Shown in pieces: positions 464 to 55,125 of a stretch of 64,000 bases of DNA (position 1 is its first letter; each line of letters begins with the position of its first letter). Source of the stretch: a virus; IMG/VR virus record IMGVR_UViG_3300021134_000001, positions 2,824 through 66,823 of that record. The stretch is one strand, 5' to 3'. A program made the position numbers and the translations under genes. A model generated the notes under the pieces. It was not told the origin of the DNA. It searched no databases and was given only the letters and a program-made list of their open reading frames with translations.

Positions 464-515
464 GCATAACTGATGAGTCTTTAATAGACGAAACCGTAGT
501 GATACGGTCTTATGC
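464..515 (+). ncRNA. hammerhead ribozyme HH1 (type I), predicted cut after C509
   Basis: gcataa CTGATGA gtct-ttaat-agac GAAA ccgta-gtga-tacgg TC ttatgc; full core, three paired stems, GUC triplet. Confidence 0.95.
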
Positions 516-3181: not shown

Positions 3182-3226
3182 ACTGATGAGTCCTCAATGG
3201 ACGAAACCGCTTCGGCGGTCTTTAAC
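3177..3226 (+). ncRNA. hammerhead ribozyme HH4 (type I), cut after C3220
   Basis: gttaaa CTGATGA gtcc-tcaat-ggac GAAA ccgc-ttcg-gcgg TC tttaac; UUCG tetraloop. Confidence 0.96.
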
Positions 3227-4960: not shown

Positions 4961-5030
4961 CTGATGAGCCGTGCATTCGGCGAAACTACTGTTGTGCAAA
5001 TCAATAACTTGCACGACAGTAGTCTTACGG
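4955..5030 (+). ncRNA. hammerhead ribozyme HH5 (type I, long stem III), cut after C5024
   Basis: ccgtaa CTGATGA gccg-tgcatt-cggc GAAA ctactgttgtgcaa...ttgcacgacagtag TC ttacgg. Confidence 0.95.
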
Positions 5031-5142: not shown

Positions 5143-5188
5143 CATGGATGTGTGTCCATGCTGATGAGTTCTAAAGAACGAAACAGAC
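5135..5188 (+). ncRNA. hammerhead ribozyme HH6 (type III), cut after A5142 (GUA triplet)
   Basis: ctgT A catgga-tgtgtg-tccatg CTGATGA gttc-taaa-gaac GAAA cag; stems I and II closed, stem III open. Confidence 0.9.
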
Positions 5189-7498: not shown

Positions 7499-7573
7499 AC
7501 TGATGAGTCCTTAATGGACGAAACAAGCGGTCACATATCCGACCAGGCGATAACGCTGCCGCTTGTCTTTAAC
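7494..7573 (+). ncRNA. hammerhead ribozyme HH7 (type I, insert in stem III), cut after C7567
   Basis: gttaaa CTGATGA gtcc-ttaat-ggac GAAA caagcgg...ccgcttg TC tttaac. Confidence 0.94.
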
Positions 7574-7621
7574 ACACGTATGGTATTCGCTATGCGTGAC
7601 TATATTATGAAAAGGAGATTT

Positions 7622-8458
7622 ATGAAAAGTAAAGAATTTACGCCAATGTTGGCGTCTGTATTTAAACCAGAAAAGTTGAAATTTCCTGCACTTGCATCGC
7701 GCAAATTGGACGGCATTCGCTGCATCGTTAGAGATGGCGTAGCGCTATCACGTAGCGGCAAGCCGATTCGCAATCAGTATATTCAAAGCGTCTTAGGACG
7801 TAAGGAATTCAATTGGTTGGATGGTGAGCTGATCGTTGGCGCGCCAAACGACCCAAAGGCGTTTTCCAACTCCACTTCAGGCGTAATGTCTGAAGATGGT
7901 GAGCCTGACTTCGTCTTTCACGTCTTTGACATCGCTGCTGAAGGCGCTGGCTTTGAGACTCGCTTAGCGGTTGCTAAAAGTATCGTTACGAAAGCAAAGA
8001 GCAAGCACTTGAAGATTGTCGAACACGTCAAGCTTACCTCACTAGGTGGCTTAGACATTATCGAAGAGAAGTGGTTGATGGAAGGATTTGAAGGTGTAAT
8101 GTTACGCTCTTTAGATGGCCCATACAAACTTGGTCGCTCTAGCGTAACTGAAGGTCACTTGTTGAAAGTGAAACGCTTTAGTGATGCGGAAGCCGAAATC
8201 ATTGGCTATGTCGAAGAGGTTACAACAAAAGATCGTACACCAAAGAATGCATTAGGTAAGTTTATTTGCCGTATGCCGAATGGTGTAGAGTTTGGCGTTG
8301 GTGGCGGCTTTAGTCGTGAAGAGCGTGAGAAATTTTGGAAGCAACGAAACAAAATGATCGGTCAAATCTGCAAGTACAAGTACTTTGAAGTAGGTATGAT
8401 CGAGGCTCCAAGATTCCCATCATTTATAGGTATTCGAGATAAGGAAGATATGTCATGA
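7622..8458 (+). CDS. ATP-dependent DNA ligase
   Basis: KLDGIR adenylation motif, LDGEL, EGVMLR, LLKVK, PRFP; start moved to ATG 7622 after AAGGAG. Confidence 0.93.
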   Translation: MKSKEFTPMLASVFKPEKLKFPALASRKLDGIRCIVRDGVALSRSGKPIRNQYIQSVLGRKEFNWLDGELIVGAPNDPKAFSNSTSGVMSEDGEPDFVFHVFDIAAEGAGFETRLAVAKSIVTKAKSKHLKIVEHVKLTSLGGLDIIEEKWLMEGFEGVMLRSLDGPYKLGRSSVTEGHLLKVKRFSDAEAEIIGYVEEVTTKDRTPKNALGKFICRMPNGVEFGVGGGFSREEREKFWKQRNKMIGQICKYKYFEVGMIEAPRFPSFIGIRDKEDMS

Positions 8459-8622: not shown

Positions 8623-8685
8623 TGGACCGCTTGGCAGACGCCAAGTGGCCAACTAGCCCATAACTAATTGATTATAAAGGATAAA

Positions 8686-9420
8686 ATGATAAATTTAGTA
8701 AATACTGACTGTTTAGAGCATTTAGCTTCGCTAGAAGATAACTCTATTGATTTGATAATCGCTGATCCTCCATATTTTATTGGATATGACGGCGGCAAAG
8801 GTTGGGATTCTGCTTGGGAAACTGAGCAAGACTATCTAGAGTGGTGTAATCTATGGACAACTGAATGTTCTAGAGTTCTGAAGCCTAATCGCATGTTAGC
8901 TGTATTTGGCACACTCAAGACAAATCTGTTCATTAAGTATAAACTTCAAACAGATGAAAACCCTCTATTGACTTCACAAAATGAGCTTATCTGGTCTTAC
9001 AACTGGGGTGGTAGAAGTAAAACAAACTTTGCGCGCAAACATGAATACGTATGGTGCTGGTCGAAAGGTGATAACTTTCTATTCAACGCTGATGCGGTTA
9101 GAATTGAACGCAAACAGAAGAGTAATCCAAGAACTGGTGAAGAGTATGCACAAGGCACAATTCCTACTTGTGTATGGGAAAAGAACAACCATACAATGAG
9201 TAAGGAGTTTTGTAAATGGCATCCTACTCAAAAGCCTGTAGAAATTCTCGATCGCATTATTCGAGGATACACTAACGAAGGTGACACTGTGCTTGATATC
9301 TTTAGCGGCAGCGGCTCAACAGCGATTGCGGCTACTAACGCCAAGCGTAACTTTAGCGGATGTGAACGCGATACTGACTACTTTGCGAAAAGTTTAGTTC
9401 GTATTCGTGAACTCACGTAA
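8686..9420 (+). CDS. DNA methyltransferase (N6-A/N4-C, beta class)
   Basis: ADPPY, HPTQKP, VLDIFSGSG motifs. Confidence 0.93.
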   Translation: MINLVNTDCLEHLASLEDNSIDLIIADPPYFIGYDGGKGWDSAWETEQDYLEWCNLWTTECSRVLKPNRMLAVFGTLKTNLFIKYKLQTDENPLLTSQNELIWSYNWGGRSKTNFARKHEYVWCWSKGDNFLFNADAVRIERKQKSNPRTGEEYAQGTIPTCVWEKNNHTMSKEFCKWHPTQKPVEILDRIIRGYTNEGDTVLDIFSGSGSTAIAATNAKRNFSGCERDTDYFAKSLVRIRELT

Positions 9421-9428
9421 GGAGTAAT

Positions 9429-9800
9429 ATGGCCGGACCTCAAGGTAAAGCTATGGCCGTAGGCTCGCATTGCGCTCGAAAGAACGTAAGCGTAGACGGC
9501 TTCACTAGGTATCCTGTGAAATCGCACAATCTCGAGCCATCAGGCGTTTACTTGAATAAAGTGAAAGCATGGATGCATGAGCATATGCCATGGGAAACGA
9601 AACAATGGGAAAAGAAGTTTGGTGTCAAAGAATGGTGGCAGATGGTCAAGATCGAAATGACTGACTACTGCTTTGGATTCGAGGGCAATCAGGCGACTTA
9701 TCTCTATATTAAATATAAAGGAGAGTTAGATGAATCTCAAGCGAAACCTCGTGGCGAAGTACGCGGCAAGATTCGCTACAAGCAAGCCGATTCTGAGTAA
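9429..9800 (+). CDS. hypothetical protein
   Basis: 123-aa ORF, AAGGAG RBS. Confidence 0.65.
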   Translation: MAGPQGKAMAVGSHCARKNVSVDGFTRYPVKSHNLEPSGVYLNKVKAWMHEHMPWETKQWEKKFGVKEWWQMVKIEMTDYCFGFEGNQATYLYIKYKGELDESQAKPRGEVRGKIRYKQADSE

Positions 9801-10013
9801 GAAGCAGAAGTTAAAGAGTCGTAAAGTAAAGCATAGGAAAAGATATGAATCCATTTGAAATGCTTGACTTAATTAGACGTACCCATCCTGATGGATATTG
9901 GCGCGCAAGGATTGCAACATATCTCGCAACGCATCGTTATACGATGAAGGAAGGTGCGGCTAATGAGTGGCGCAATGTTCCACCAGATGGATTACCTATA
10001 CAAGGAGAAAATC

Positions 10014-10496
10014 ATTAACATATTCTATCTTGACGCGGATCCTGTAAAGGCCGCAGAAATGCACTGTGATAAACATGTGTGTAAGATGATCATCGAAACG
10101 GCTCAAATGATGAGCTCGGTCCAAGCTCGTTATGGACTCGAAAATCCTCCATACAAACCAACGCATCAAAAGCATCCATCAACGCTGTGGTCAGGCGATA
10201 ACACGCTTCACTATGCATGGCTAAGAGCATTAGGATTGAGCTTATGCCGTGAGTATACGAAGCGCTATAATAAAACCCATAAGACTGAAGCGATTATTAA
10301 AGATTTATGGTCAGCGCCGCTTGGCATGCCTACAGGAGAGTGGAGCAATCCACCTCAATGTATGCCTGACGAGTGTAAGATGGATGACACCATCGATGCT
10401 TATCGTAAGTATTATGTTATTGCTAAAGCGAAGTTTGCCAAATGGGCACACGCAACTAAGGCACCGCAATGGTGGCCTAAGCTACAAACAATGTAA
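10014..10496 (+). CDS. pyrimidine-dimer DNA glycosylase (DenV-related) family protein
   Basis: NIFYLD.DP..AA..HCDKHV.KM..E.AQ, YKPTH..HP, PPQCMP, AYR.YY; probable ATT start. Confidence 0.75.
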   Translation: MNIFYLDADPVKAAEMHCDKHVCKMIIETAQMMSSVQARYGLENPPYKPTHQKHPSTLWSGDNTLHYAWLRALGLSLCREYTKRYNKTHKTEAIIKDLWSAPLGMPTGEWSNPPQCMPDECKMDDTIDAYRKYYVIAKAKFAKWAHATKAPQWWPKLQTM

Positions 10497-10539
10497 CTGA
10501 TGAGTCCTAATGGACGAAACGCCGTGAGGCGTCTTACAT
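10491..10539 (+). ncRNA. hammerhead ribozyme HH8 (type I), cut after C10533
   Basis: atgtaa CTGATGA gtcc-taat-ggac GAAA cgcc-gtga-ggcg TC ttacat. Confidence 0.96.
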
Positions 10540-10557
10540 AATTATTAAAGGAGGAAT

Positions 10558-12117
10558 ATGGCACGTAATATAAAGAAAGAAATAGGCGAGTTATATACAG
10601 CATTAAACTCCGTTCGCGCTGAAAAGCGATCTTTAGCGGCTCGAATGGATAACGCTCGACGTGCTAGCACTCTTGGGATCGACTTAGGTGACAACGAGTT
10701 TTACTATCGCGTCAGTATGGATTTCCGTGGTCGTTTGTATTATCGCGGCTCACATATGAATCCTCAAATGGGTGATGACATTAAGGTAATGTTAACCTTA
10801 GGCCAGAAGAAGCCGCTCACCGAGATGGGATTTAAATGGTTGTTATGGGGAATCGCTTCAGCTGCAGGCCAGAGTAAGAAGAGTTTCTCTGAGCGTGTCG
10901 AATGGACGCTTGAAAATTGGGCTAATATTCGCGAAGCCGTTCGCAATCCTATTGAATCTCAATGGTTTGCTGACGTCGTAATGGGTGAAGATGAGCCTGC
11001 ACTGTTTCTACAACGCGCTACTGTTGCAGTAGAGGCTGTAGAGTCTGGCGCTCCATTTGATTATCCAACAGATATCACTATTGCAATGGACGCAACATGC
11101 TCAGGTCTTCAGATTCTCTCAGCGGTCGCTCGTGACCTCGAAGGTGGACGCTTAGTCAACCTCGTCGACACTGGCGAGCGCCAAGACGTGTATCTGACGG
11201 TGCTGAATATGGTCAAGCAATCTTATGCAAACGATAACGATGTATTTGCTATCCACATGCGTGAGAATAGCGAAACCTTTGGTCGTCGATTTACAAAGAA
11301 AGTGGTAATGACATTGCCGTATTCTGCGACGTTTAGAAGTGCAGTTGGTTATATTCTAGACGAATTGCAAGGCAATATGGAGAAAAACAATCCTCCATTC
11401 CCATTGCCTGATTCTGTTGAAGATCGCTTAGCACTCTATAACGCCATCTTAGCCCGCAAAGGTAAGGATTTAGTTATAGATTCCACTTTAGCGAAGTTAG
11501 ACGATTTTAGTTTATATCGCATGCTTGCTGATTACCTTGGCCGTCTAGTAATGGACGCCTGTGATAAGTGTTTACCTGCGGCGCTAAATCTCTTACACTT
11601 TTTCCAATCGTGTCCTAAACATTTAGATGGACACGCACATTGGATGACGCCTGATGGATTTAGAGTAGACCAAGTTTATGGCTCTCGCGAACGTGAAAAG
11701 ATTCAATTTCGTTTACAAATGGCAGACCAAGAGACTGGCGAACTAATCAGTCAAAAGATTCAGCGTCGCTATGAATGGCTAGACCCAAACGAAAAGGATG
11801 GACGTAAAGCAGCTAACGGAATGCCACCTAATTGGGTGCACTCATTAGACGCAACGCTAGTGCGAATGGTAGTAAGAACATGCGATTTTCCAATCGTCTG
11901 TATTCACGATTCATTTGCATCACATCCGGCAGATTGTGAAGACTTATCTAAAGCGTTGCGTGAACAGTTTACACTTCTTGTTCAGCAAATGCCATTAGAG
12001 ACTTTAATTACACAATTGAACGAGCAAGTTGGCGATGAGATTTTCTCAACAACCAATTTGACTGTAAACACTTGGGATCCAGAGCAAGCGAAAACTTCAC
12101 CCTTTCTATTTTGTTAG
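10558..12117 (+). CDS. T7-family RNA polymerase, catalytic (C-terminal) subunit
   Basis: DFRGRLY, motif A DATCSGLQ, motif B R...K..VMT..Y, PNWVHSLDA, motif C IHDSF, F-rich C-terminus. Confidence 0.93.
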   Translation: MARNIKKEIGELYTALNSVRAEKRSLAARMDNARRASTLGIDLGDNEFYYRVSMDFRGRLYYRGSHMNPQMGDDIKVMLTLGQKKPLTEMGFKWLLWGIASAAGQSKKSFSERVEWTLENWANIREAVRNPIESQWFADVVMGEDEPALFLQRATVAVEAVESGAPFDYPTDITIAMDATCSGLQILSAVARDLEGGRLVNLVDTGERQDVYLTVLNMVKQSYANDNDVFAIHMRENSETFGRRFTKKVVMTLPYSATFRSAVGYILDELQGNMEKNNPPFPLPDSVEDRLALYNAILARKGKDLVIDSTLAKLDDFSLYRMLADYLGRLVMDACDKCLPAALNLLHFFQSCPKHLDGHAHWMTPDGFRVDQVYGSREREKIQFRLQMADQETGELISQKIQRRYEWLDPNEKDGRKAANGMPPNWVHSLDATLVRMVVRTCDFPIVCIHDSFASHPADCEDLSKALREQFTLLVQQMPLETLITQLNEQVGDEIFSTTNLTVNTWDPEQAKTSPFLFC

Positions 12118-12123
12118 GAATAT

Positions 12124-13029
12124 ATGAGTATAAAACAAGAACAAATCCAAAGAGAGTTAGAAGCGATTCGTTTAGTAAAACAGAGTAGACTTGAAAAGAC
12201 TGAACTTATGAACAGTCTTCAAGAGACCTTCTCTGAAGAAATTCAAACGCTAAGCGAATCTCTTACAAAGTGGTACGCAACGATGCAAGATCCTAAAGAT
12301 GATAATGCGTTACTTTATCAAAAATTAGTGTTTAGCATTGAAACGCCAGTTATGGCTGAACTTATCATTCGCGCTATCTTTGAAGGACTTATGATAACAA
12401 CGCATCAATCCGTGAATTATCAGTTTATCGTAGATCGCCTGCTTATTCAAAGGTATTTACGTAGCACGCTTCCTCCTGAAGAACGTGTTATCTTACCTAA
12501 GTATAAGTTCTTAGTGATCGATAGATTGGTTACACGATCAGTGCGATTACTAACAACGCTATTCTCCGAATCAATGGTTCGTGAGCGTAACGCTAAAGGT
12601 GAGGTTGAGACGTTTTACACCGTCCACCTTACTGAGTTAGGTCGTGAGCGATTAGCAAAGGTTCCACTAAATCAAGTAATCTCTGACGTTCCAATGTATT
12701 GTAAACCGCAGCCATGGACTTCAGTGTTTGATGGTGGATATCTAACAGCGGACGCGCAACGAGGAAATCCTTTGATTCAATCGAAGCGTCTTTCTTATCG
12801 CGAACTGCGTGCAATCGATAAAGAATTGCAAGCAAATCCACAGATCTTTGAGGCAGTAAATAAGATGCAAAATGTATCTTTTAGAATAGACCAAAAATCC
12901 AAAGATTATCAGAACACTATTGCGCAAGTGCGAAAACGTAAGATTAAGGAATGTGATCGCAAGATTACAGCCTACGTCGAGCAGATCGCGAAGCTCAAGA
13001 GTGACCTGGCGCAAGTGGATCCTATATAG
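12124..13029 (+). CDS. T7-family RNA polymerase, N-terminal-domain subunit
   Basis: PMYCKPQPWTSVFDGGYL and IFEAVNKMQNVSFRID resemble T7 RNAP PCVVPPKPWTGITGGGY and VYKAINIAQNTAWKIN. Confidence 0.82.
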   Translation: MSIKQEQIQRELEAIRLVKQSRLEKTELMNSLQETFSEEIQTLSESLTKWYATMQDPKDDNALLYQKLVFSIETPVMAELIIRAIFEGLMITTHQSVNYQFIVDRLLIQRYLRSTLPPEERVILPKYKFLVIDRLVTRSVRLLTTLFSESMVRERNAKGEVETFYTVHLTELGRERLAKVPLNQVISDVPMYCKPQPWTSVFDGGYLTADAQRGNPLIQSKRLSYRELRAIDKELQANPQIFEAVNKMQNVSFRIDQKSKDYQNTIAQVRKRKIKECDRKITAYVEQIAKLKSDLAQVDPI

Positions 13030-13033
13030 AGAG
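13009..13033 (+). promoter_or_regulatory. putative phage RNAP promoter, copy 1
   Basis: GCGCAAGTGGATCCTATATAGAGAG, exact repeat at 25167; TATA then purine-rich start like T7/SP6 promoters; upstream of replication genes. Confidence 0.75.
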
Positions 13034-13073
13034 CTCCCGTAGCACTCTTTTTTCAATAACATGGAGAGCCTAG

Positions 13074-13607
13074 ATGGCAAAACTAAAAACCACAGTAACA
13101 CCAAAAGGTGTATTGTCATGGCCTTACATTGGTAAGCCAGATACACGATACAATCCTGAAGGTGTGTATAAGACCAGCTTGATTGTACCAGCCGAGACCG
13201 CTGAACCGCTGATGACTATGTGTAAAGACGCTTTTATTACCGAGTACGGCGCAACAAAGATGGCTAAGGCAAATATGCCTTTCTCACCTGAGTTGGACGA
13301 TCAAGGCCAAGAAACTGGCAATATCGTATTTAAATTTAAGTCAAAGCGTGCACCTAAGTTATACGATGCCAAAGGCAAAGTAATTAACAAAGTGCTACAA
13401 GTATCGTCTGGCACGGTTGCGAAAGTTGCTACTGCAATTAATCCATACATGACTGGTATCAACGTGGGTGTTTCACTATATCTCAATGACGTTCAGATTA
13501 TCGAATTAGTTGAATATGGTGCAGGCGCTAAGTTTGAAGCTGAAGATGGATACGAAGCAGAAGACAACGGATCGACAGACGATGGCAAAGACTCGCCTGA
13601 CTTCTAA
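13074..13607 (+). CDS. single-stranded DNA-binding protein (T7 gp2.5-like)
   Basis: TPKG, KPD, GVSLYLNDVQIIELVE, acidic tail ending in F. Confidence 0.9.
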   Translation: MAKLKTTVTPKGVLSWPYIGKPDTRYNPEGVYKTSLIVPAETAEPLMTMCKDAFITEYGATKMAKANMPFSPELDDQGQETGNIVFKFKSKRAPKLYDAKGKVINKVLQVSSGTVAKVATAINPYMTGINVGVSLYLNDVQIIELVEYGAGAKFEAEDGYEAEDNGSTDDGKDSPDF

Positions 13608-13986
13608 ACAACTTGCTATTAAATACGCATATCGTAGTGGATTAGAAGAGAAGATTGCCGATCAGCTGACGAACTTAAACGTCTCCTTTACTTTCGAAGA
13701 AACTGTATTGTATTATACTAAGCCAGAGCGTAAGCATCGCTATACGCCTGACTTTGTGTTATCCAATGGCATTATCATCGAAACTAAAGGTCGTTTCTTA
13801 ACGGCTGATCGACAGAAACATCTCCTTGTCAAAGAACAGAATCCCACTATGGATATTCGTTTCGTGTTCTCAAACTCGAACGCTCGTATCTCTAAATCAT
13901 CTGCTACAACGTATGCAGATTGGTGTAGAAAACACGGCTTTCAGTTTGCGGATAAACTAATACCTGTTGAATGGATAAAGGAATAA
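13582..13986 (+). CDS. endonuclease I / Holliday junction resolvase (T7 gp3-like)
   Basis: YRSGLE, YTPDF, IIETKG, DIRFVFSNS. Confidence 0.95.
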   Translation: MAKTRLTSKQLAIKYAYRSGLEEKIADQLTNLNVSFTFEETVLYYTKPERKHRYTPDFVLSNGIIIETKGRFLTADRQKHLLVKEQNPTMDIRFVFSNSNARISKSSATTYADWCRKHGFQFADKLIPVEWIKE

Positions 13987-13989
13987 GTA

Positions 13990-15609
13990 ATGGAAGCGGA
14001 AGATAGTAAATTTCTACGACACGAACAATGCGAATCTTGCGGTTCGTCGGATGCAAAGGCTATTTATAGTAATGGCTCTACCTTCTGTTTTTCATGTCAA
14101 GTATCTACGCGTAAAACGTCAGATAACAAAGTGCAAACTATGAACGCCACGACTCCACTTTTGAATCCGTATTTCGATGGACAAGTGGAACCATTGGCCG
14201 CTAGAGGTATTGCTGAAGCGACGTGTCAGAAGTATGGCGTTCGCAAAGGCCAACTCAACGGCAAAGTGGTCCATCTCTATCCTTACTACAAGGATGGACA
14301 AGTTGTCGCAGCAAAGACGCGCGATGCCGCCAAGAATTTCAATATTATTGGTGATGGCAAAGATTTGTCGTTCTTTGGTCAAAATCTATTTGGTAAGCCA
14401 AGCGATAAGATTTCGCTTGTGGTTACTGAAGGTGAAATTGACGCGTTATCAATGGCTCAGATTATGGGATTAAAATTCCCAGTCGTATCTGTGCCAAGCG
14501 GCGCTCAATCTGCCGTTAAAGCCTTTCGCAATAACATTGAATGGCTTGATGGTTGGAAAGACGTCGTTATCATGTTTGACAGCGATGCGCCAGGTCGAGA
14601 CGCTGCTCAGAAGTGTGCAGAAGTCCTTAGACCAGGCAAAGCACGTATTGCATCATTGCCGTTGAAAGACGCTAATGATATGTTGATGGCTAAGCGTTCT
14701 GAAGAATTGATGAAATGCTTCTGGGATGCAAAGTCATTTAGACCTGACGGTATTATTGCAGGTGTAGATTTGTGGGAGTTGATTTCTCATGAAGATGAAA
14801 CGCTTTCAGTTGAGTATCCATTCGTGGCGCTCAATGAAAAGACGCATGGTTGTCGACGCGGTGAGTTGGTTACAGTTACGGCTGGATCAGGCATCGGTAA
14901 ATCGGCGTTTATGCGTGAAATTGCCCATCACTTACTAAACCTCGGTGAAACAGTTGGCATGGTGATGTTGGAAGAAAATCCACGTCGAACAGCGTTAGGC
15001 CTTATGGGCTTAGCGATTGATAAACCATTACATCTGTCACGTGAAGGCGTAAGTCAAGAGCAATTACGTACAGCATTTGACCAAACACTTGGTACTGGTA
15101 GAGTATTCTTATTCGATCACTTCGGTTCTTCTGAAGTTGAGCATTTAATGAATAAACTCCGTTACATGGTAAAAGGTTTAGGCTGTAATTGGGTTATTCT
15201 TGATCACCTATCCATTCTAGTATCTGGATTGGAAGGCGTAGATGAGCGAAGACTTATCGACCAAGCAATGACAATGTTGCGTACATTCGTAGAAGAAACC
15301 GGTTGTGGTATGTTATTAGTGTCGCATTTAAAACGACCTGATGGCAAAGGCCATGAAGAAGGTGCCCATACGTCTCTATCGCAACTTCGTGGTAGCCATG
15401 CTATCGCTCAACTTTCTGATATTGTTATCGGATTGGAGCGTAATCAGCAAGGTGATAATCCTAATGAAACTCAAATACGCGTTCTAAAGAATCGATTTAG
15501 TGGTGAAACTGGCGAAGCCGGTAAGCTCTACTTTAATCGTGACACTGGACGTTTAACTGAGACATTTATACAAGTAACTTCTAATAACAACTCTTTTGGA
15601 GAATTTTAA
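13990..15609 (+). CDS. primase-helicase (T7 gp4-like)
   Basis: Zn ribbon CxxC...CxxC, TOPRIM EGEID and FDSD, Walker A AGSGIGKS, LRGS, KNRF. Confidence 0.96.
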   Translation: MEAEDSKFLRHEQCESCGSSDAKAIYSNGSTFCFSCQVSTRKTSDNKVQTMNATTPLLNPYFDGQVEPLAARGIAEATCQKYGVRKGQLNGKVVHLYPYYKDGQVVAAKTRDAAKNFNIIGDGKDLSFFGQNLFGKPSDKISLVVTEGEIDALSMAQIMGLKFPVVSVPSGAQSAVKAFRNNIEWLDGWKDVVIMFDSDAPGRDAAQKCAEVLRPGKARIASLPLKDANDMLMAKRSEELMKCFWDAKSFRPDGIIAGVDLWELISHEDETLSVEYPFVALNEKTHGCRRGELVTVTAGSGIGKSAFMREIAHHLLNLGETVGMVMLEENPRRTALGLMGLAIDKPLHLSREGVSQEQLRTAFDQTLGTGRVFLFDHFGSSEVEHLMNKLRYMVKGLGCNWVILDHLSILVSGLEGVDERRLIDQAMTMLRTFVEETGCGMLLVSHLKRPDGKGHEEGAHTSLSQLRGSHAIAQLSDIVIGLERNQQGDNPNETQIRVLKNRFSGETGEAGKLYFNRDTGRLTETFIQVTSNNNSFGEF

Positions 15610-15610
15610 G

Positions 15611-15856
15611 ATGAGCACAAACAGCTACTTCGTAATCCGCGCAATCAAAGAAAAAGGCGTAGCAACGTCTGCATTTATTGCAAAGAAGTATAAAGTTAAA
15701 AACGTATCAGCCACTGTATCTGCCTTGCGCAAACGTGGTCATGAGATTGTAACACTTGCCGAAGGTTATGCATTGCCTTTCGGTACGCGCGATGAAGCAG
15801 CCAAACTAAGTAAGACTGCGCGCAACAAGATTGCTAAGCAATTTGGCTTAGTATAA
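15611..15856 (+). CDS. small winged-HTH-like DNA-binding protein
   Basis: IA..Y...NVSATVSALRKRGH pattern. Confidence 0.55.
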   Translation: MSTNSYFVIRAIKEKGVATSAFIAKKYKVKNVSATVSALRKRGHEIVTLAEGYALPFGTRDEAAKLSKTARNKIAKQFGLV

Positions 15857-16139: not shown

Positions 16140-16199
16140 GTCTGACTGATGAGCCTTAAATAGGCGAAACCGCCACTCGTGAGAGTCGCGGTCTCAGAC
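16140..16199 (+). ncRNA. hammerhead ribozyme HH9 (type I), cut after C16193
   Basis: gtctga CTGATGA gcct-taaat-aggc GAAA ccgc-c-actc-gtga-gagt-c-gcgg TC tcagac. Confidence 0.95.
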
Positions 16200-16268: not shown

Positions 16269-18068
16269 ATGAAATTATTATTCGATATAGAAAGTAACGG
16301 ACTGTTGGACACCGTATCAAAGGTCCATTGTATCGTGATACAGAATGTTGAAACAGATGAAGTATTTTCATTTGTTGGACATGACGAAATTATCGCAAAA
16401 GCTATTCCAATGTTAAATGAAGCTGAAGAGCTGTCAGGCCATAATATTATTGGCTATGATATTCCAGCACTTCGGAAGATTTTTCCTGGAAAGTTAAAAG
16501 AAAATATAAATGCATTTGACACTCTCCTTGCGGTAAAGCTCAGTAATCCTGATATTTATCAAATGGACGTGGCTAAGCGTTATCCTAAGCTCTCTCAAAA
16601 GAATTATGGCAGCTACTCACTTGAATCTTGGGGCGAACGCCTTGGAAATCATAAAGCGAGTAAGCCTGTAGATTTTGAAGAGTTTACGGAAGACATGCTA
16701 AAGTATTGTATTCAAGACGTTTCAACAAACGTTACGATTTACAAATACCTCAAAGGTTTAAACCTTAGTGAGCGCGCTTTACAACTTGAAACTGACTTTT
16801 GGTTTAACACCATCGATATGTCAGATTCAGGTTTTCCATTCGATCTCAAAGCGGCACAAGCGATGTATGCAAGGTTGTCAGCAGAGCGTGAAGAAATTCG
16901 TCAAGAATTGATTACACTCTTCCCAACTCGCACCATTGAACGTGTCTCTGAAAAGACTGGTAAACCATTAAAGCCAACTGTGATTGAATTTAATCCAGGC
17001 TCGCGCGATCATATCGCTTATTGGTTTAAAAAGAAATATGATTGGACACCAAAAGCATTTACACCATCAGGCAAACCTGAAATTAACGCGGATGTTCTAG
17101 AAGAATTAGACTATCCTGAAGCAAAAGAACTTAAACGATATTTCGTAATCGATAAGATTATTGGAATGGTCGGTGAAGGCAAAAACGCTTGGTTGACTAT
17201 GGTCGGTAAAGATGGACGTATGCACGGTCGTATCAATACGATTGGTGCTGCAACTACTCGCTGCTCGCACTCAACGCCAAACATGGCTCAAGTGCCAGGC
17301 GCTCGTAAAGAATTTGGGCTTGAATGTCGTGCACTGTTTCATGCTCCAAAGGGCTACAAACAGATTGGCACTGACTTAAACGCTATCGAATTACGATGCT
17401 TTGCACATTACCTAGGTGCATATGACAATGGTGAATATACTAACATTATCTTAGGTGGTGACATTCACTGGGCCAACGCTGTAGCGGCAGGATTCCATCC
17501 TCCATTACCTGAAGGTCAAGTATACGATTCATCTGTAAAAGCACAGAAGCTCGCTCGTGACCAAGCAAAGACTCTTATCTACGCTATGATTTATGGCGCA
17601 GGTGACGCTAAGCTCGGCATGATTGTTGGTGGTGCTACAAAAGAAGGTAAAGCAATTCGTAAGAAGTTTTACGAGAACTTTCCTGCGATTGAAAAATTCA
17701 CTAACGATGTCAAGAAAGCGGCTGAAGGTCGTGGCAATATTAAACTATTACATGGCGCAACCATCCCTGTTCGTAAAGCATTTGCTGCACTAAACACTCT
17801 TTTACAAGGTGCTGGTGCCGTAGTCGCTAAAGAATGGCTAAACGTTGCTCGTGAAATGGCTGAAGCCAAAGGTTGGAAGTATAATGATGACTTTTGGTTT
17901 GCTGGACATATCCATGACGAAATCCAAGCGATCGCAAAAGATGACATCGCAAAAGACTTTGCGTATTTGATGGAAGCCTCTGCTCAAGAAGCAGGTGCAA
18001 GATTAGGTATGCGCTGCCGCGTCGATGCTGAAGCTAAAGTTGGACAGAATTGGGCAGATTGCCATTAA
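16269..18068 (+). CDS. DNA polymerase family A (T7 gp5-like)
   Basis: FDIE exonuclease motif, HNIIGYD, DLNAIELR, RDQAKTLIY (Tyr as in T7), IHDE. Confidence 0.96.
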   Translation: MKLLFDIESNGLLDTVSKVHCIVIQNVETDEVFSFVGHDEIIAKAIPMLNEAEELSGHNIIGYDIPALRKIFPGKLKENINAFDTLLAVKLSNPDIYQMDVAKRYPKLSQKNYGSYSLESWGERLGNHKASKPVDFEEFTEDMLKYCIQDVSTNVTIYKYLKGLNLSERALQLETDFWFNTIDMSDSGFPFDLKAAQAMYARLSAEREEIRQELITLFPTRTIERVSEKTGKPLKPTVIEFNPGSRDHIAYWFKKKYDWTPKAFTPSGKPEINADVLEELDYPEAKELKRYFVIDKIIGMVGEGKNAWLTMVGKDGRMHGRINTIGAATTRCSHSTPNMAQVPGARKEFGLECRALFHAPKGYKQIGTDLNAIELRCFAHYLGAYDNGEYTNIILGGDIHWANAVAAGFHPPLPEGQVYDSSVKAQKLARDQAKTLIYAMIYGAGDAKLGMIVGGATKEGKAIRKKFYENFPAIEKFTNDVKKAAEGRGNIKLLHGATIPVRKAFAALNTLLQGAGAVVAKEWLNVAREMAEAKGWKYNDDFWFAGHIHDEIQAIAKDDIAKDFAYLMEASAQEAGARLGMRCRVDAEAKVGQNWADCH

Positions 18069-19842: not shown

Positions 19843-21036
19843 ATGACACGTATTGCGCATATTCTGGGACGTGGTATTGAGGGCTGTGGAGTAACCATGG
19901 CTGCGGTACAACTCCAACGCGGAGCTGGCGGTACTATCTACGCTGAAATGACAAAGAAGTGGCCACGCGGTAAAGGCATCTTGTTTGATCGAGTAGAATT
20001 TAAAAGTAAAGATTCGTGGTATCAAATCGCTAACGAAATCAACGCAGATTACGATTTAGTGGTGTTTCACTCGGTGCCTGCTACTTCAATGGATGATGAG
20101 ACAACCTCAGCATTCTTGAGAATGGTTAAAGAGATTACAGTGCGTAAGGCGCTTATCAATCACGACCATAAAATGGCATCAATTACACGTAATGCGAATC
20201 TAAAAGAAATCTGTGAGAATGTAGATATTCTTACAACCCACTCTTTAGAAAACGACTTTTGTCGATGGTTAGTAAAGAACGAAGTTACGACTCCAGTCAC
20301 TAAGATGGAATTAGGCTTTGACTATGCCACGCATCGCGCTAAGTATTGGGTGCCAATCGAAAAGCAGGATAGTCGAGTATGGCGCTGGATTGGCCGTGCA
20401 GCCGGTTGGAAAAATCCTAAACTAGCGATTGACTTCCATCAGCATGCTTTGATGGACAGTGGATTTATTACCATCTTAGAAGGTCTTGAGGCCTCTATTG
20501 GTTACAAGGACCTCCTATACACTGACGTGGATGACCCATCTACGCGTCGTATAGTATCCAACTACTTCCGTCAAGAGAAGGAGTATGGTGAGTCTGGTAA
20601 GCATGTCCATGGCACTGAAGTAGAGCATGTTGGCGCATATTTATTACCACCCTTCGTAAATGAAGAGGCTATGTATCGTTTAGGCAAATCTGCCTTTGGA
20701 TCGAATCTCTATAATTTACCTGCTAAATATCATTGTAATAATATTGAATATTGCCACGCTGAAGTTATCGCTTCTGGTTGCGTGCCTATTTTCCACAAAG
20801 ATTTACTTGACTCACTTATCCATAAAGGACGTGGCGATCCAGTAAGCAAATGTGTAAACACTGGCACCATCGGTCTCGATTATGGAAGCAGTTTCGCCGA
20901 AGTTCACGATAAGATGGTTTTCTTACGAGATAATCCAACTGCGCGCGATGAATGGCGTGAAATGGCTTATGCATTCTGGAAAGAGCATAACGATTTAGCA
21001 GTAGTAGCAGAATCAACTATCAATCAATTAAAATAA
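19843..21036 (+). CDS. agt: DNA alpha-glucosyltransferase (T4 Agt-like)
   Basis: GRGIEGCGVT, HSVPATS, HDH, IGR...WK.P, IEYCHAE..A.G..PIF resemble T4 Agt motifs. Confidence 0.8.
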   Translation: MTRIAHILGRGIEGCGVTMAAVQLQRGAGGTIYAEMTKKWPRGKGILFDRVEFKSKDSWYQIANEINADYDLVVFHSVPATSMDDETTSAFLRMVKEITVRKALINHDHKMASITRNANLKEICENVDILTTHSLENDFCRWLVKNEVTTPVTKMELGFDYATHRAKYWVPIEKQDSRVWRWIGRAAGWKNPKLAIDFHQHALMDSGFITILEGLEASIGYKDLLYTDVDDPSTRRIVSNYFRQEKEYGESGKHVHGTEVEHVGAYLLPPFVNEEAMYRLGKSAFGSNLYNLPAKYHCNNIEYCHAEVIASGCVPIFHKDLLDSLIHKGRGDPVSKCVNTGTIGLDYGSSFAEVHDKMVFLRDNPTARDEWREMAYAFWKEHNDLAVVAESTINQLK

Positions 21037-25077: not shown

Positions 25078-25166
25078 GGATGCCCTTGGAGCACCCACGT
25101 GAGTCATGGAGCACTCGAAATGCAGTGGATATAGGCAACACTATACTCACGGCGAGATAGTGCCTC

Positions 25167-25191
25167 GCGCAAGTGGATCCTATATAGAGAG
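25167..25191 (+). promoter_or_regulatory. putative phage RNAP promoter, copy 2
   Basis: identical 25-mer to 13009-13033, in intergenic DNA. Confidence 0.75.
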
Positions 25192-29112: not shown

Positions 29113-29187
29113 TTCTCGATAGTGTTAACGGTAGCACGTCTGTCTCCAAAACAGAAGGTTGCGGTTCGAATCCGTATCGGGATGCCA
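29113..29187 (+). tRNA. tRNA-Trp (CCA)
   Basis: cloverleaf, anticodon arm tctgt-ctCCAaa-acaga, GGTTCGAATCC T-loop, encoded 3' CCA; U-U at pair 1:72. Confidence 0.9.
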
Positions 29188-42760: not shown

Positions 42761-45700
42761 CTATTTTCTTTTGCGCTCATACTTGCTCTTAACCAATAAG
42801 GCTTCGCTTGTTGCTGGAGTCATTACATCCATCCATACATATCCACCATTCGGATCGTTGGCTGGGAAAAACTGTATGAGCCATCCACCTGGAACCTCGA
42901 AGGTGTGTGGTGTACTTACAGACTCTTCAGCAGTTACAGTCACCCATGAGTTTGCTGCCTCTGGGAAGTTGAAGCGGCCAGCGGTTGGAGGGTTGATAGA
43001 GAAAACAAAATCCATTCCAACTGCAGAAGTTACAGACATAGTTACAGGGTCTGGAGGAGTAGGTGGAGCTTCTTCAACAGTTACGTCAGCAGTTACAGGC
43101 TTACTCAACTCGTTAGGACTGAAAGTAATTGTATACGTTCCAGCCGCGCGATAAGCGTAAGTACCAGTACCATCGGCGGTCTCTAGCGTTCCTTGTGGGA
43201 TAGCAGGAGTTGTCACTTCACCAGTATCAGGATCAGTTACTTCTGCTACAGCATCGCCAAAGTAATACGTTCCGCCACATGGGATATCTAATGCCAATGA
43301 GACATTGAGATAATTAGGTGTAGGAGTAATTACATATGGAACGCTTGTATGCGACACGAATGTCGTAGTAGCTTCGTAGTTATGATCGTCTGGAACATAG
43401 CGAATTGTGAATGTACCATCTAATGGATAGGTGTAAGTACCTGTACCATCGCCAGTAGTCAACGTACCTTCAGGAACAGCAGGAACCTCAGGAATAGTCG
43501 GTGTCAACTCTACAGTTGCACTTGACTGAGCCACAGGATCCGCATCAGGAATATCTAATGGAGTAATCATTACCATAGTGTCATCAGACGCCATGAAAGA
43601 TACTGTCACAGATGACGCGGCAGGATAAGTAAAGGTTGCATTGCCATCGGCGCTTAGGAAGCTTGAGCCTGCCTCATCACCAAATGCATACATACCGCCA
43701 ATACCCTTGTTATTGCTGAAGTTGAACTTCCACTGTCCATTATCATAGTCAGGAGTTGCAGTCATCTGTAGACCATAAGTCGCTGGGACTTCTGGAATAG
43801 CAGGCTGTGCATCGCCGAAATAATAAGTACCGGCCAAAGCAGGTGCAGATGCTAGAGTCGCTGTACGTTCATCACGCATAGCAACGATAGAGTAATCTGT
43901 ACGCGCTACGGCGTTGACGTCCAGAGTGACTGGCTTACTGAGTTCGTTAGGCTCAAATGTAATAGTGTAATCACCAGCACGAGCATAAGTATACTCAACA
44001 ACACCGTCAGTAGTCTCAATGACTCCTTCAGGGATTGCAGGTTCTGGAACTACTAACCATTCATTATCGCTAACTTGCTCGATAGAGCCAGAGTCTAACA
44101 CTTCAAGTTGCATTGTAGAAACTGAACCATTAGTATCGTCTGTAAATGTTACAGTATATGTACCAGCAGCAGCGTAAGTAAATGCACCATCAGCATTGAC
44201 AGTACCGTCTGGATCTCCATAAGAGTATTGACCAGCAGACTTACCGCGCTTTGCAGCACGGAGTCGATGAGCAATACGTGAGAAACGAGTCACACCGTCA
44301 TTAGTGAACGTGAAGGCCAAAGAGTTGTCTGCAGAAGGCGTCGCAATAATGTGAGCCTTATACACACCAACAACCTCAGGAACGTAGTCACCCATTCTAT
44401 ACACACCGCCGCATGTCGGAGACAAGCTTAGGGTTTTGTATAAGAAATACTCTGGAGATGAGATAACATACGGAACGCTATTATGAGAGATAAACTCTGT
44501 AGTAGCATTATAGTTATGGTCATCAGGAATATAGGTAATTGTAAACGTACCTTCACGAGCATACTCATAGGTACCTGTACCATCAGAAGTTGTTAGCGTG
44601 CCTTCTTCGATAGCTGGAACTTCTGGGATTGCTTCAGTCAGAATTTCTTCAGGACTGGTTTGCGCCACAGGGTCAACATCAGGAACACTCAACGTCATAG
44701 TAGATACAGCGCCTGTAGAGGCTTCTGTAAACGTGACAGTATAATCTCCAGCCGCAGTGTAAATCATTTCAGACACACCGTTAGGTGTCTCATCTGTGGT
44801 AGACTCTGCATCGCCATACGAGTAAATACCTTCTACACCGGTATCAAAGATAAAGGTGAGTGGAACTGGATCATAAGCAGGAGTTGCAACTATTTGTTTC
44901 TTATAGACAGCTGGAACTTCTGGCACAGCAGGAACGTAATCACCGAAATGATATACACCTGGTAACGCAGGAGAAGATGACAATGTAGCAGTACGCTCAT
45001 CACGAGATGCAGTGATAGAGTATGAAGTACGTTCGACAGCACTTACATCCAATGTGACAGGTTTACTCAACTCATTCGGATAGAATGTGATTGTGTAATC
45101 GCCAACACGTGGGTAAGTATATTCGGCAGTACCGTCTGTAGTCGTAACTTCACCAGCAGGAATCGCAGGTACTTCTGGGACATAAGGAGAAATCTCCTCA
45201 AGTTCACCAGTCTGTGCAACAGGCGCGTCATCAACTATCAACGATAGATTGGAGACATAGCCGGTCGCATCGTCAGTAAATGTTACAGCGTATGTACCAG
45301 GACCAGGATAGGTAAAGACACCTGAAGTATCAACAGTTGCGGCTTCATCGCCATAACCGAAAGAACCGGCAGGAGCGTTCTCTACGCTAAATGTAAACAT
45401 ATAAGGAACAGGAGGATCCGAAGCATCTGGTGTTGCGGTGATCTTGTTCTTATTTACAGCTGGAACTTCTGGAATCGCAGCTACATAGTCGCCCATGTTA
45501 TAATATCCGCCACAAGTTGGGGATAAGCTGAGAGTCTTGTACATAAAGTACTCAGGAGAACTAATCACATAAGGCACGCTTGTATGTGCGATACATGTTG
45601 TAGTAGCTTCATAGTTGTGATCGTCAGGAACATAACGAATCGTATAAGTACCTTCACGAGGATAGGTGTAAGACGCAGTACCATCAGAACTTGTAGCAGT

Positions 45701-49252: not shown

Positions 49253-49612
49253 TTAGGGATTGAGTGGAAATGCGGATGATGATCCGTTTGTGTCGAAGAA
49301 TGGGAATGTAGATGTGACTGAGACTTTGACAGTTCCTGGTTCAATACCAGGAGATGCTGTAAGACCAGGACCTAATTCTAAACTACCAGGTGTCAGACCT
49401 CCACCACTACCAGGCTCACCCTGTGGTCCGACTAAACTTGCTAGCCATTCGTCTTCTGTACCAACGAAACCGTTGGCTAATGCAACTTCATACGCTGAGA
49501 GGCCAGGGTCGCCTTTGGGACCCTGTTCTCCTTGAGGACCTTGCGGTCCCTGTGGACCAGGTTCACCTGGCCCACCTGACAAGTATTGTAATGTATCTGG
49601 ATATCCGGACAT
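49253..49612 (-). CDS. short collagen-like protein
   Basis: GXY repeats, SAYEVA..NGF.GTE.EWLASL motif. Confidence 0.75.
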   Translation of the reverse strand: MSGYPDTLQYLSGGPGEPGPQGPQGPQGEQGPKGDPGLSAYEVALANGFVGTEDEWLASLVGPQGEPGSGGGLTPGSLELGPGLTASPGIEPGTVKVSVTSTFPFFDTNGSSSAFPLNP

Positions 49613-49621
49613 AGTGACTCC

Positions 49622-52140: not shown

Positions 52141-52155
52141 AATTTAATTCCTTTA

Positions 52156-55035: not shown

Positions 55036-55125
55036 GTTTCTATTCCTTATCGTGAAGCCGATTTTAATTACGTGAGAAGTAAACAACTTTCCAAAGACCG
55101 TGTTTAGCGGCCTTCAGAAAACTGT

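What the first reader, a model, noticed from the sequence alone, without database searches (positions are those of the whole stretch)
10558..13029. T7-type RNA polymerase split in two with the halves in reversed order
Seen: the 519-aa ORF has all catalytic motifs but starts in the thumb region. The following 301-aa ORF carries the motifs that precede the thumb in T7 RNAP (P..P.PW....GGY; AVN..Q...F.I). Both new termini are long amphipathic helices (IKKEIGELYTALNSVRAEKRSL; IKECDRKITAYVEQIAKLKSDL). Established: N4 RNAPII is a heterodimeric T7-family enzyme whose N-terminal subunit gene comes first. Inference: a heterodimer, possibly an independent split, reassembled through a thumb coiled coil. 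The reversed order excludes a simple frameshift or intron explanation.
Basis: partly seen in the sequence, partly recalled or inferred. Interest (0 to 1): 0.78.

Follow-up and report, generated by a model that had tools for sequence, protein, structure and literature searches.

The report
Reversed-order split phage RNA polymerase
An uncultivated freshwater phage encodes its T7-type RNA polymerase as two separate proteins cut in the thumb, with the gene for the back half placed before the gene for the front half, and this odd layout is conserved in a whole group of related phages.

Summary
ORF 10558-12117 (519 aa) is the thumb-tip-to-C-terminus part of a T7-family RNA polymerase, with DX2GR and motifs A, B and C. 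ORF 12124-13029 (301 aa) is the N-terminal domain plus the first thumb helix. Profile comparison puts the N-part on columns 47-298 and the C-part on columns 345-818 of an 818-column full-length profile, so the halves tile the enzyme.

The order C then N, with a 6-7 nt spacer, recurs in 5 of 5 related contigs (40-99% identity). Independently assembled contigs from three other lake runs bridge the junction, so it is not a misassembly. Both genes are under purifying selection, and the 20 C-parts sit on one side of a branch against 81 full-length enzymes.

A complex prediction gives ipSAE 0.83 against 0.00 for the best control, with heptad-spaced contacts between the two terminal helices. This may partly reflect solved T7 structures.

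The cut differs from N4 RNAPII, where DX2GR lies in the N-subunit. The best reading is an independently evolved, non-covalent heterodimer. Binding and activity are predicted, not shown. I found no printed description.

Extras: a hammerhead ribozyme just upstream and a conserved promoter-like motif at the 3' end of the N-part gene.

The parts
10491..10539 (+). Type I hammerhead ribozyme directly upstream of the C-part gene. The predicted cut after GUC lies about 24 nt before the start codon.
   Evidence: Rfam RF00163 scores 36.1 bits against a gathering score of 34. The fold is a three-way junction at -15.7 kcal/mol, z -3.4. The same core sits upstream of the C-part in L037 (read by eye).
10550..10554 (+). 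Shine-Dalgarno GGAGG for the C-part gene
   Evidence: Sequence read
10558..12117 (+). RNAP C-part, 519 aa: second thumb helix (about residues 3-42), DX2GR, palm and fingers with motifs A, B and C, and the C-terminal FLFC
   Evidence: AF2 model pLDDT 83; Foldseek best match is T7 RNAP, E 1.5e-20, TMq 0.69.
12115..12126 (+). Coupling junction: the C-part stop codon overlaps an SD-like AGGA/AGGAG, followed by a 6-7 nt spacer and the N-part ATG
   Evidence: TAG-gaatat-ATG in the window. The same layout (TAG/TAA followed by GA/GGA, 6-7 nt) occurs in 5 of 5 related loci.
12124..13029 (+). RNAP N-part, 301 aa: N-terminal (promoter-binding) domain with a beta-hairpin at 147-169, the PxxxxPxPW...GGY and AVNKMQN blocks, and the first thumb helix (259-297)
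   Evidence: There are 12 end-to-end stand-alone relatives of 284-311 aa among 1.84 billion representatives.
13005..13033 (+). Candidate phage-RNAP promoter overlapping the last codons and the stop of the N-part gene, just before the gp2.5-like SSB gene
   Evidence: 29-nt repeat. The 25-nt core has 2 exact copies against 0 expected. ATAGAGAG occurs once in each of L037, L003, L039 and L040, always at this same place, over non-conserved codons.
25163..25191 (+). Second copy of the candidate promoter, in an intergenic region

Best explanation
The two ORFs encode the two subunits of one T7-family RNA polymerase that is naturally cut at the tip of the thumb.

- The 519-aa protein carries the second thumb helix, DX2GR, palm and fingers: all of the catalysis.
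- The 301-aa protein carries the promoter-binding N-terminal domain and the first thumb helix.
- Both are translated from one transcript, with the N-part coupled to the stop codon of the C-part.
- They assemble non-covalently. The C-terminal helix of the N-part and the N-terminal helix of the C-part pack antiparallel and rebuild the thumb. The PxPW/GGY/AVNKMQN region of the N-part packs on the DX2GR region of the C-part.
- The enzyme then probably transcribes from the conserved GGAT..TATAGAGAG motif at the end of its own operon, driving the replication genes.

What is shown: homology, tiling, conservation of order, purifying selection.
What is predicted: the interface.
What is inferred: activity, the promoter assignment, and an origin by tandem duplication of an intact gene followed by loss of the outer N and C parts.
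For: Homology and tiling:
- N-part residues 34-258 align to full-length columns 47-298 (98.9% probability, E 2.5e-17). C-part residues 6-519 align to columns 345-818 (100%, E 1.7e-86).
- On T7, the N-part profile positions 190-272 align to residues 270-347, and C-part residue 47 aligns to T7 413.
- The catalytic residues are invariant in 20 of 20 C-parts.

Gene order:
- The order C then N is found in 5 of 5 loci that hold a full-length N-part relative: L002 99%, L037 77%, L003 52%, L039 44%, L040 40%.
- Contigs from three other runs bridge the junction: X5 12074-12238, X6 11785-12390, X8 11981-12279.

Selection and descent:
- Window against L037: pN/pS is 0.114/0.751 for the C-part and 0.154/0.736 for the N-part.
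- The 20 C-parts lie on one side of a branch (SH-like 100) against 81 full-length RNAPs.
- Only one PF00940 match and one PF14700 match occur in the 66.8-kb record.

Predicted complex:
- ipSAE 0.83 (runs 0.84, 0.82, 0.83) against 0.00 for the best of 3 controls.
- The runs agree in at least 87% of contacts, and the partner pLDDT is at least 79.
- That mark was reached by 58 of 80 solved complexes and 2 of 110 mismatched pairs.
- Contacts fall at chain 1 residues 2, 5-6, 8-9, 12-13, 15-16, 19-20, 22-23 and chain 2 residues 273-274, 277-278, 280-281, 284-285, 287-288, 291-292, 294-295.

Transcription unit: no sigma70-like promoter on the + strand and no terminator-like site in 9800-13300.
Against: - No experiment exists. 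Binding and activity are predictions.
- The complex score may come from the model's memory of solved single-chain T7 RNAP structures, and my own alignments were used, so the calibration counts hold only roughly.
- The N-part folded alone gave no Foldseek match to T7 RNAP at E <= 0.001. The best rows were winged-helix PadR proteins at E 0.07.
- PF14700 scores 28.1 bits, below its 30.1-bit cut-off.
- No RNA run is listed for this DNA, so expression is untested.
- The record is only about 59% complete, so a second RNAP gene elsewhere in the phage cannot be excluded.
- Only 2 promoter-like copies lie in the window and none lies before the minus-strand structural genes.
- The duplication-deletion origin has no direct trace.
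Confidence: 0.8

Rival explanations
1. The C-part is the polymerase proper. The N-part is a dissociable, sigma-like initiation and specificity factor that binds through the coiled coil only for promoter recognition and melting, or whose supply limits the amount of active enzyme.
For: - The N-part holds the promoter-binding elements by homology.
- It diverges faster than the C-part in every pair. N/C identity to the window: 77/83, 75/83, 50/59, 46/56, 47/50, 40/51.
- It is translated second, from a weak SD that overlaps a stop codon.
- Engineered T7 fragments can act this way (passages of PMC4299498).
Against: - The predicted interface is large: 279-312 contacts. It includes the buried PxPW/GGY region packed on DX2GR, not only the helices.
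- That region is an integral part of the fold in single-chain enzymes.
- There is no evidence for release.
Confidence: 0.1
2. The halves are rejoined into one chain by a split intein, RNA trans-splicing or circularisation between ribozymes.
For: Hammerhead ribozymes flank the region (10491 and 16146). Their cleavage products could in principle be ligated.
Against: - The two proteins tile the full-length profile with no extra sequence: the N-part ends near column 341 and the C-part starts near column 340.
- There are no intein-sized extensions.
- ORF2 ends in a stop codon in all 5 loci, so a circular RNA would still give two proteins.
Confidence: 0.03
3. The ORFs are decaying remnants of a rearranged RNAP gene with no function.
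For: The layout is unusual and no expression data exist.
Against: - Both frames are intact in 5 of 5 loci down to 40% identity.
- pN is far below a saturated pS.
- The catalytic residues are invariant.
- Twelve stand-alone N-part cluster representatives exist.
Confidence: 0.03
4. The order is an assembly artefact.
For: The window is a metagenome-assembled virus record.
Against: - The same order is found in five contigs from other records.
- Junction-bridging contigs come from runs of three other studies.
- The upstream and downstream gene junctions are also bridged.
Confidence: 0.01

Closest known systems
Bacteriophage N4 RNAPII (gp15 + gp16), the known natural heterodimeric T7-family RNAP
   Same: Two polypeptides together make one T7-like enzyme. 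The genes are adjacent. The N-subunit carries the more variable promoter-recognition part.
   Different: [quoted passage not shown] Here the cut is inside the thumb, and DX2GR is in the C-part.
- N4 gp16 residues 41-121 align to C-part residues 139-218, so the N4 cut lies about 100 residues further on.
- The gene order here is reversed.
- The enzyme here is full-sized (820 aa in all, against 673), and much closer to T7 RNAP (E 1.4e-35) than to gp16 (E 4e-8).
- N4 RNAPII needs cofactors gp1 and gp2 and has a minimal AT-rich promoter. I did not look for such cofactors here.
Single-chain T7 / phiKMV-type phage RNAPs (PF14700 + PF00940)
   Same: All conserved blocks and the fold. The gene sits before a gp2.5-like SSB, an endonuclease I-like gene, a gp4-like primase-helicase and a DNA polymerase. 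A promoter-like motif follows the gene.
   Different: The enzyme is two chains in permuted gene order. The best identity to any phage in the GenBank collection is 33%. The carrier has a tape-measure protein and a J-like tail protein, so it is not a T7-like podovirus.
Engineered split T7 RNAP (bisection mapping, 'resource allocator')
   Same: T7 RNAP tolerates cuts at surface-exposed seams. Antiparallel leucine zippers added at a cut raised activity more than tenfold at low expression (passages of PMC4299498). Here the two natural termini look like such an antiparallel pair.
   Different: The seams named in the passages I saw are at residues 67, 179 and 601, and the word 'thumb' does not occur in the main text. 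The full list of 36 sites is in a figure and supplements that I could not see. The natural cut maps to about T7 residues 365-380 by extrapolation.
Another split RNAP seen here, in normal order (locus L036)
   Same: A T7-family RNAP in two ORFs before SSB, endonuclease and primase genes.
   Different: The order is N (296 aa) then C (569 aa). The cut lies between the GGY and AINTMQN blocks, and the stop and start codons overlap by one base. It is a single contig, so a sequencing frameshift is not excluded.

Membership tests
T7-family single-subunit RNA polymerase (PF00940 catalytic part) | Palm and fingers with motifs A (D), B (R..K..Y) and C (HD), plus DX2GR | tested here: met
   PF00940 scores 213.6 bits against a 22-bit cut-off. 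D55, R57, G58, R59, D178, R243, K247, Y255, H450 and D451 are invariant in 20 of 20. The fold matches T7 RNAP at E 1.5e-20.
T7-family single-subunit RNA polymerase | N-terminal promoter-binding domain (PF14700 RPOL_N) | tested here: met
   hhalign gives 98.9% probability, E 2.5e-17, over residues 34-258. Pfam hmmscan alone is just under its cut-off (28.1 against 30.1 bits). The database's precomputed Pfam lists PF14700 for 7 of 7 N-parts. A Foldseek search of the lone model found nothing.
T7-family single-subunit RNA polymerase | One polypeptide chain | tested here: not met
   There are two ORFs with a stop codon and a 6-nt spacer, in C-then-N order, in 5 of 5 related loci.
T7-family single-subunit RNA polymerase | Promoter-specific DNA-dependent RNA synthesis | not testable with these tools
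   There is only a candidate promoter motif.
N4 RNAPII-type heterodimer | Two subunits that align to non-overlapping parts of T7 RNAP | tested here: met
N4 RNAPII-type heterodimer | Cut after thumb and DX2GR, with the N-subunit gene first | tested here: not met
   DX2GR is in the C-part. gp16 starts about 100 residues into the C-part. The gene order is reversed.
N4 RNAPII-type heterodimer | Close sequence kinship to gp15/gp16 | tested here: not met
   gp16 chain 6dt7_B matches at E 4e-8 over 80 residues, against E 1.4e-35 for T7 RNAP. No PDB match of the N-part profile to the other N4 RNAPII chain at E <= 1.
Split-intein joined protein | Intein halves at the two new termini | tested here: not met
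   No extra length: the tails of 29 and 46 residues span 66 T7 residues. No intein family appeared in the Pfam scan.

The most novel reading that the evidence does not exclude
The cut makes the promoter-binding N-terminal domain a separate, exchangeable, sigma-like subunit. It docks on the catalytic subunit through a two-helix zipper that doubles as the thumb. The phage could then set the amount or the timing of active polymerase by the supply of the N-part, and recombination could swap specificity. This would be a natural counterpart of the engineered 'resource allocator', and it would have arisen independently of N4 RNAPII through tandem duplication and reciprocal truncation.
Probability: 0.15. 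Interest if true: 0.8.

Novelty: new variant of a known kind. Interest (0 to 1): 0.62.

Why it matters
- It would be a second, independent natural route to a two-subunit T7-family RNA polymerase. As far as my seven literature searches show, it would be the first with the gene halves in permuted order.
- It marks the thumb tip as a naturally validated split site whose own helices act as the assembly zipper. That is of direct use to people who build split T7 RNAP sensors and logic gates.
- It gives a clean case for studying how an essential single-chain enzyme becomes a heterodimer, for example by duplication and reciprocal loss.
- The mechanism itself, non-covalent reassembly of two fragments, is not new in kind.

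Tried and rejected
- Misassembly: rejected.
- Intein, trans-splicing or circular RNA rejoining: rejected on length and stop codons.
- Pseudogene: rejected.
- Structural confirmation of the N-part alone: Foldseek against the PDB gave no match at E <= 0.001. The VIA libraries were not on the machine. Homology of the N-part therefore rests on profile comparison and sequence.
- Close cultured relatives: none. Best identity in 'phages' is 33% for the C-part and 35% over 38% of the N-part. The ORF at 48188-49237, which I sent as a guessed capsid gene, gave no match. The portal protein reached 27% at most.
- Genome contigs held no relative of the N-part.
- The divergent subgroup (C-part P0026 at 33%; N-parts P0134-P0136) could not be placed on contigs. 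Its gene order is untested.
- RNA evidence: no RNA holder listed, so nothing can be said on expression.
- Of the 35 loci, only L002 and L003 matched the whole N-part. The other 33 matched residues 189-267 only (mostly 30-36% identity; L036 65%), and of these I opened only L036.
- The tree is FastTree only. It left out the 17 proteins under 770 aa that are outside the split group, and N4 gp16 was not in it.
- Database names: the four cluster look-ups gave no names.
- A terminator reading of the ATAGAGAG motif was considered, because AGAG...CTCT plus a T-run follows it at 13026. It is less likely: the second copy at 25163 shares the 22 nt upstream but not the downstream part, and no terminator-like site was scored.
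- Supplements of PMC4299498 (the full list of T7 split sites) are closed, so I cannot say whether a thumb seam was found in T7.
Full report
WHAT THE WINDOW IS

The window is bases 2824-66823 of a 66.8-kb IMG/VR virus record. The record is linear, and CheckV estimates it to be 59% complete.

The plus strand from 1 to about 28 kb carries early and replication genes:
- ligase-like ORF 7514-8458, read from its translation and not scanned against any library
- a 250-aa ORF at 8668-9420, whose translation I read as a DNA methylase; no family scan was run on it
- Pyr_excise-like ORF 9954-10496
- the two RNAP ORFs
- gp2.5-like SSB, 13074-13607
- a 158-aa ORF, 13510-13986, which I read as endonuclease I-like from its position and size; no family scan was run on it
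- gp4-like primase-helicase, 13990-15609
- DNA polymerase, 16269-18068

The minus strand from about 30.6 kb to 64 kb carries a J-like tail protein, a tape-measure protein, collagen-like fibres, a portal protein and a ribonucleotide reductase. The phage is therefore siphovirus-like with a T7-like replication and transcription module.

No cultured phage is close. The best tblastn identity is 33% for the C-part, 58% for the primase-helicase and 27% for the portal. Near-identical DNA occurs in freshwater and lake metagenome runs of several studies.

THE OBSERVATION

ORF1 (10558-12117, 519 aa):
- It matches PF00940 at E 6.4e-63.
- It matches phrog_414 'RNA polymerase' at profile positions 346-816 of 816.

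ORF2 (12124-13029, 301 aa):
- It matches the same PHROG at positions 188-319.
- It matches PF14700 RPOL_N at 28.1 bits, just under the 30.1-bit cut-off.

Against PDB sequences, ORF1 residue 47 aligns to T7 RNAP residue 413 (E 1.4e-35). The profile of ORF2 and its six relatives aligns positions 190-272 to T7 residues 270-347 (E 1.2e-4).

I compared both families with an alignment of 30 full-length RNAPs (A3) by hhalign:
- The N-part covers columns 47-298 with its residues 34-258 (98.9% probability, E 2.5e-17).
- The C-part covers columns 345-818 with its residues 6-519 (100% probability, E 1.7e-86).

Extrapolating the unaligned tails, the N-part ends near column 341 and the C-part starts near column 340. 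The two proteins tile the enzyme without overlap or gap. In T7 numbering the break falls at about residue 365-380. That lies in the thumb, which I recall as T7 residues 326-411; that range comes from memory and from no call.

The 29 + 46 tail residues span what is 66 residues in T7, so there is no room for intein halves. DX2GR and motifs A, B and C are invariant in 20 of 20 C-parts. AlphaFold2 models H3-42 and H259-297 as single long helices.

IS THE REVERSED ORDER REAL?

Word-indexed protein searches gave two sets of relatives:
- Seven N-part proteins of 299-314 aa, at 40-100% identity (7 with E <= 0.001 among 1317 candidates).
- 117 C-part relatives among 8000 scored candidates.
  - Nineteen form the split group (P0008-P0026). 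Eighteen are at 50-95% identity and P0026 is at 33%. They are 466-532 aa long; the two shortest are cut at the N-terminus.
  - After these, identity drops to 30% or less, and nearly all remaining proteins are full-length (about 780-909 aa).

Loci fetched with the N-part alignment all show C-part, then a 6-7 nt spacer, then N-part, then SSB:

| Locus | N-part identity to window | Note |
|---|---|---|
| L002 | 99% | |
| L003 (same contig as L038) | 52% | C-part cut by the contig end |
| L037 | 77% | |
| L039 | 44% | |
| L040 | 40% | |

That is 5 of 5 loci with a full-length N-part relative. L041, a more distant hit, has a normal 853-aa gene.

Logan contigs of four runs other than the likely source were laid on 9900-13700:
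- The ORF1/ORF2 junction is bridged by X5 record 13 (12074-12238, no differences), X6 record 20 (11785-12390) and X8 record 30 (11981-12279).
- The upstream junction is bridged by X5 record 9, X6 record 19 and X10 record 3.
- The downstream junction is bridged by X5 record 14, X6 record 23, X8 record 31 and X10 record 7.

Misassembly is excluded.

ARE BOTH GENES MAINTAINED?

- Nei-Gojobori counts, window against L037: pN 0.114 and pS 0.751 for the C-part; pN 0.154 and pS 0.736 for the N-part.
- In the more distant pairs pS stays saturated (0.74-0.81) while pN is 0.31-0.40.
- An exhaustive profile search of 1.84 billion cluster representatives with the N-part alignment found 125 proteins at E <= 0.001.
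  - Twelve are stand-alone proteins of 284-311 aa matched end to end (E 4.8e-152 to 6.4e-17).
  - Two are fragments.
  - The rest start at E 6.4e-10 and are mostly full-length RNAPs.
- Three divergent N-parts (P0134-P0136) also end in a long charged helix.
- In a FastTree tree of 101 rows, the 20 split rows are one side of a branch with SH-like support 100. The rows were 20 split C-parts plus the 81 relatives of 770 aa or more; 17 shorter proteins were left out. One origin is thus not contradicted. The tree is unrooted and quick, and it does not include N4 gp16.
- The record holds one PF00940 match and one PF14700 match.

DO THE HALVES BIND?

Complex prediction was run with A2 and A1, with the N-part as partner:
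- ipSAE was 0.84, 0.82 and 0.83 (median 0.83). The best of 3 controls was 0.00.
- The runs agree in at least 87% of contacts, and the partner pLDDT is at least 79.
- The mark was reached by 58 of 80 solved complexes and 2 of 110 mismatched pairs. These counts hold only roughly, because my own alignments were used.

The interface has two parts:
- C-part 42-83 (around DX2GR) packs against N-part 186-260 (the PxPW, GGY and AVNKMQN blocks).
- There is a ladder of contacts at 3-4 residue spacing, C-part 2-33 against N-part 262-298. This is what two packed helices would give.

Since the chain must go up and down the thumb, the helices should be antiparallel. That orientation is inferred.

This is a split of a fold with many solved single-chain structures, so the pass may reflect memory of T7 RNAP. 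It shows likeness, not binding.

The C-part model alone (pLDDT 83) matches T7 RNAP at E 1.5e-20, TMq 0.69. The N-part model alone (pLDDT 74, low at 189-256) found no RNAP by Foldseek. Those low-confidence residues are the ones that contact the C-part in the complex.

EXPRESSION SIGNALS

- A type I hammerhead ribozyme lies at 10491-10539 (Rfam 36.1 bits against a gathering score of 34). It folds as a three-way junction. It ends 18 nt before the ORF1 start, which has a GGAGG Shine-Dalgarno.
- The ORF1 stop codon overlaps an AGGA/AGGAG-like SD for ORF2 in 5 of 5 loci. This suggests translational coupling.
- No sigma70-like promoter on the plus strand and no terminator-like site was scored in 9800-13300.
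- The last codons and the stop of ORF2 lie in a 29-nt repeat (13005-13033) that recurs at 25163-25191.
- A third copy, with 3 mismatches, lies on the minus strand at 2331-2353 of the full record, which is outside the window.
- Its core ATAGAGAG occurs exactly once in each of L037, L003, L039 and L040, always at the 3' end of the N-part gene, although the codons there are not conserved.
- With GGAT upstream and a TATA-G core, it resembles a T7-type promoter. That resemblance is recalled, not tested. I read it as the promoter from which this polymerase drives the replication genes.

COMPARISON WITH WHAT IS KNOWN

[quoted passage not shown] The review also says that, of more than 500 homologues, only 24 were heterodimers, all tied to N4-like phages. 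Here:
- DX2GR is in the C-part.
- gp16 residues 41-121 align to C-part 139-218, so the N4 cut is about 100 residues further on.
- The order is reversed.
- The sequence is far closer to T7 RNAP than to gp16.

I therefore file this as working like N4 RNAPII, a non-covalent two-subunit T7-family enzyme, but not as a member of that lineage.

Engineered T7 RNAP tolerates cuts at five surface seams. Those named in the passages I read are at residues 67, 179 and 601, and added antiparallel zippers improved assembly (PMC4299498). The figure and supplements with all sites were not available to me.

Seven literature searches returned nothing on a reversed-order or thumb-split natural T7-family RNAP. Only titles, abstracts and the cited passages were seen. 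The library lacks most subscription journals.

ORIGIN (inference only)

A tandem duplicate N-C-N-C that lost the first N and the last C would give C-N directly. The intact copy would cover the function until both fragments could assemble. The thumb tip is a place where ragged ends would be tolerated. I found no relic of such an intermediate.

VERDICT

Binding, activity and the promoter remain to be shown. It is a new variant of a known kind, and interest is moderate to high.

Noticed in passing
window 470-494, 1886-1909, 2462-2485, 3183-3207, 4961-4986, 5161-5184, 7500-7524, 10497-10520, 16146-16170 (all + strand): Nine hammerhead ribozyme cores (CTGATGA..GAAAC), against 0.29 expected by chance, all sit between genes of the early plus-strand region. 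Rfam scores 10491-10539 at 36.1 bits and 1880-1928 at 34.5 bits, both at or above the gathering score of 34. Three more score below gathering: 2456, 3177, and 5135 as a type III-like match. They look like self-cleaving punctuation of a long early transcript. L037 has three as well. In the lake runs many contigs match only 10489-10541 and then run on unlike, so the element recurs in many contexts.
   Followed up: partly
L036 376-2975: Another T7-family RNAP in two ORFs, in normal order: 296 aa ending just after GGYL, then 569 aa starting before AINTMQN. The stop and start codons overlap by one base, and SSB, endonuclease and primase genes follow. It is either a further natural split site or a frameshift error in a single contig.
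   Followed up: no
L037 11287-11908 and L040 7992-8644: Group I intron-like matches (RF00028, 43.6 and 42.2 bits, below the gathering score of 50) interrupt the DNA polymerase gene. The gene reads as 439 + 160 aa pieces with a 175-192 aa ORF inside. The window's own polymerase gene is uninterrupted at 599 aa.
   Followed up: no
window 12672-15856 compared with L003 1443-4625: Mosaicism. L003 shares 88.6% DNA identity with the window from the last third of the N-part gene through SSB, endonuclease and primase-helicase. Its RNAP halves are only 59% (C) and about 50-52% (N) identical in protein. The polymerase pair seems to be exchanged as a unit, with a breakpoint near the promoter-like motif.
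   Followed up: partly
own record G000:C1:2331-2353, minus strand (outside the window): A third copy of the promoter-like repeat, with 3 mismatches and pointing leftwards. It could serve minus-strand genes if the genome is circular or permuted.
   Followed up: no
window 42761-48175 (-) and 49253-55086 (-): An 1804-aa ORF has about five internal repeats of roughly 1.1 kb and no PHROG match. Next to it are two large collagen-like (G-X-Y) tail fibre genes whose repeats dominate the repeat scan.
   Followed up: no
window 19843-21036 (+), 9954-10496 (+), 29113-29187 (+): An alpha-glucosyltransferase-like gene (phrog_2888, E 1.4e-56) hints at sugar-modified DNA. A Pyr_excise/DenV-like gene lies just before the RNAP. 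There is a tRNA-Trp.
   Followed up: no
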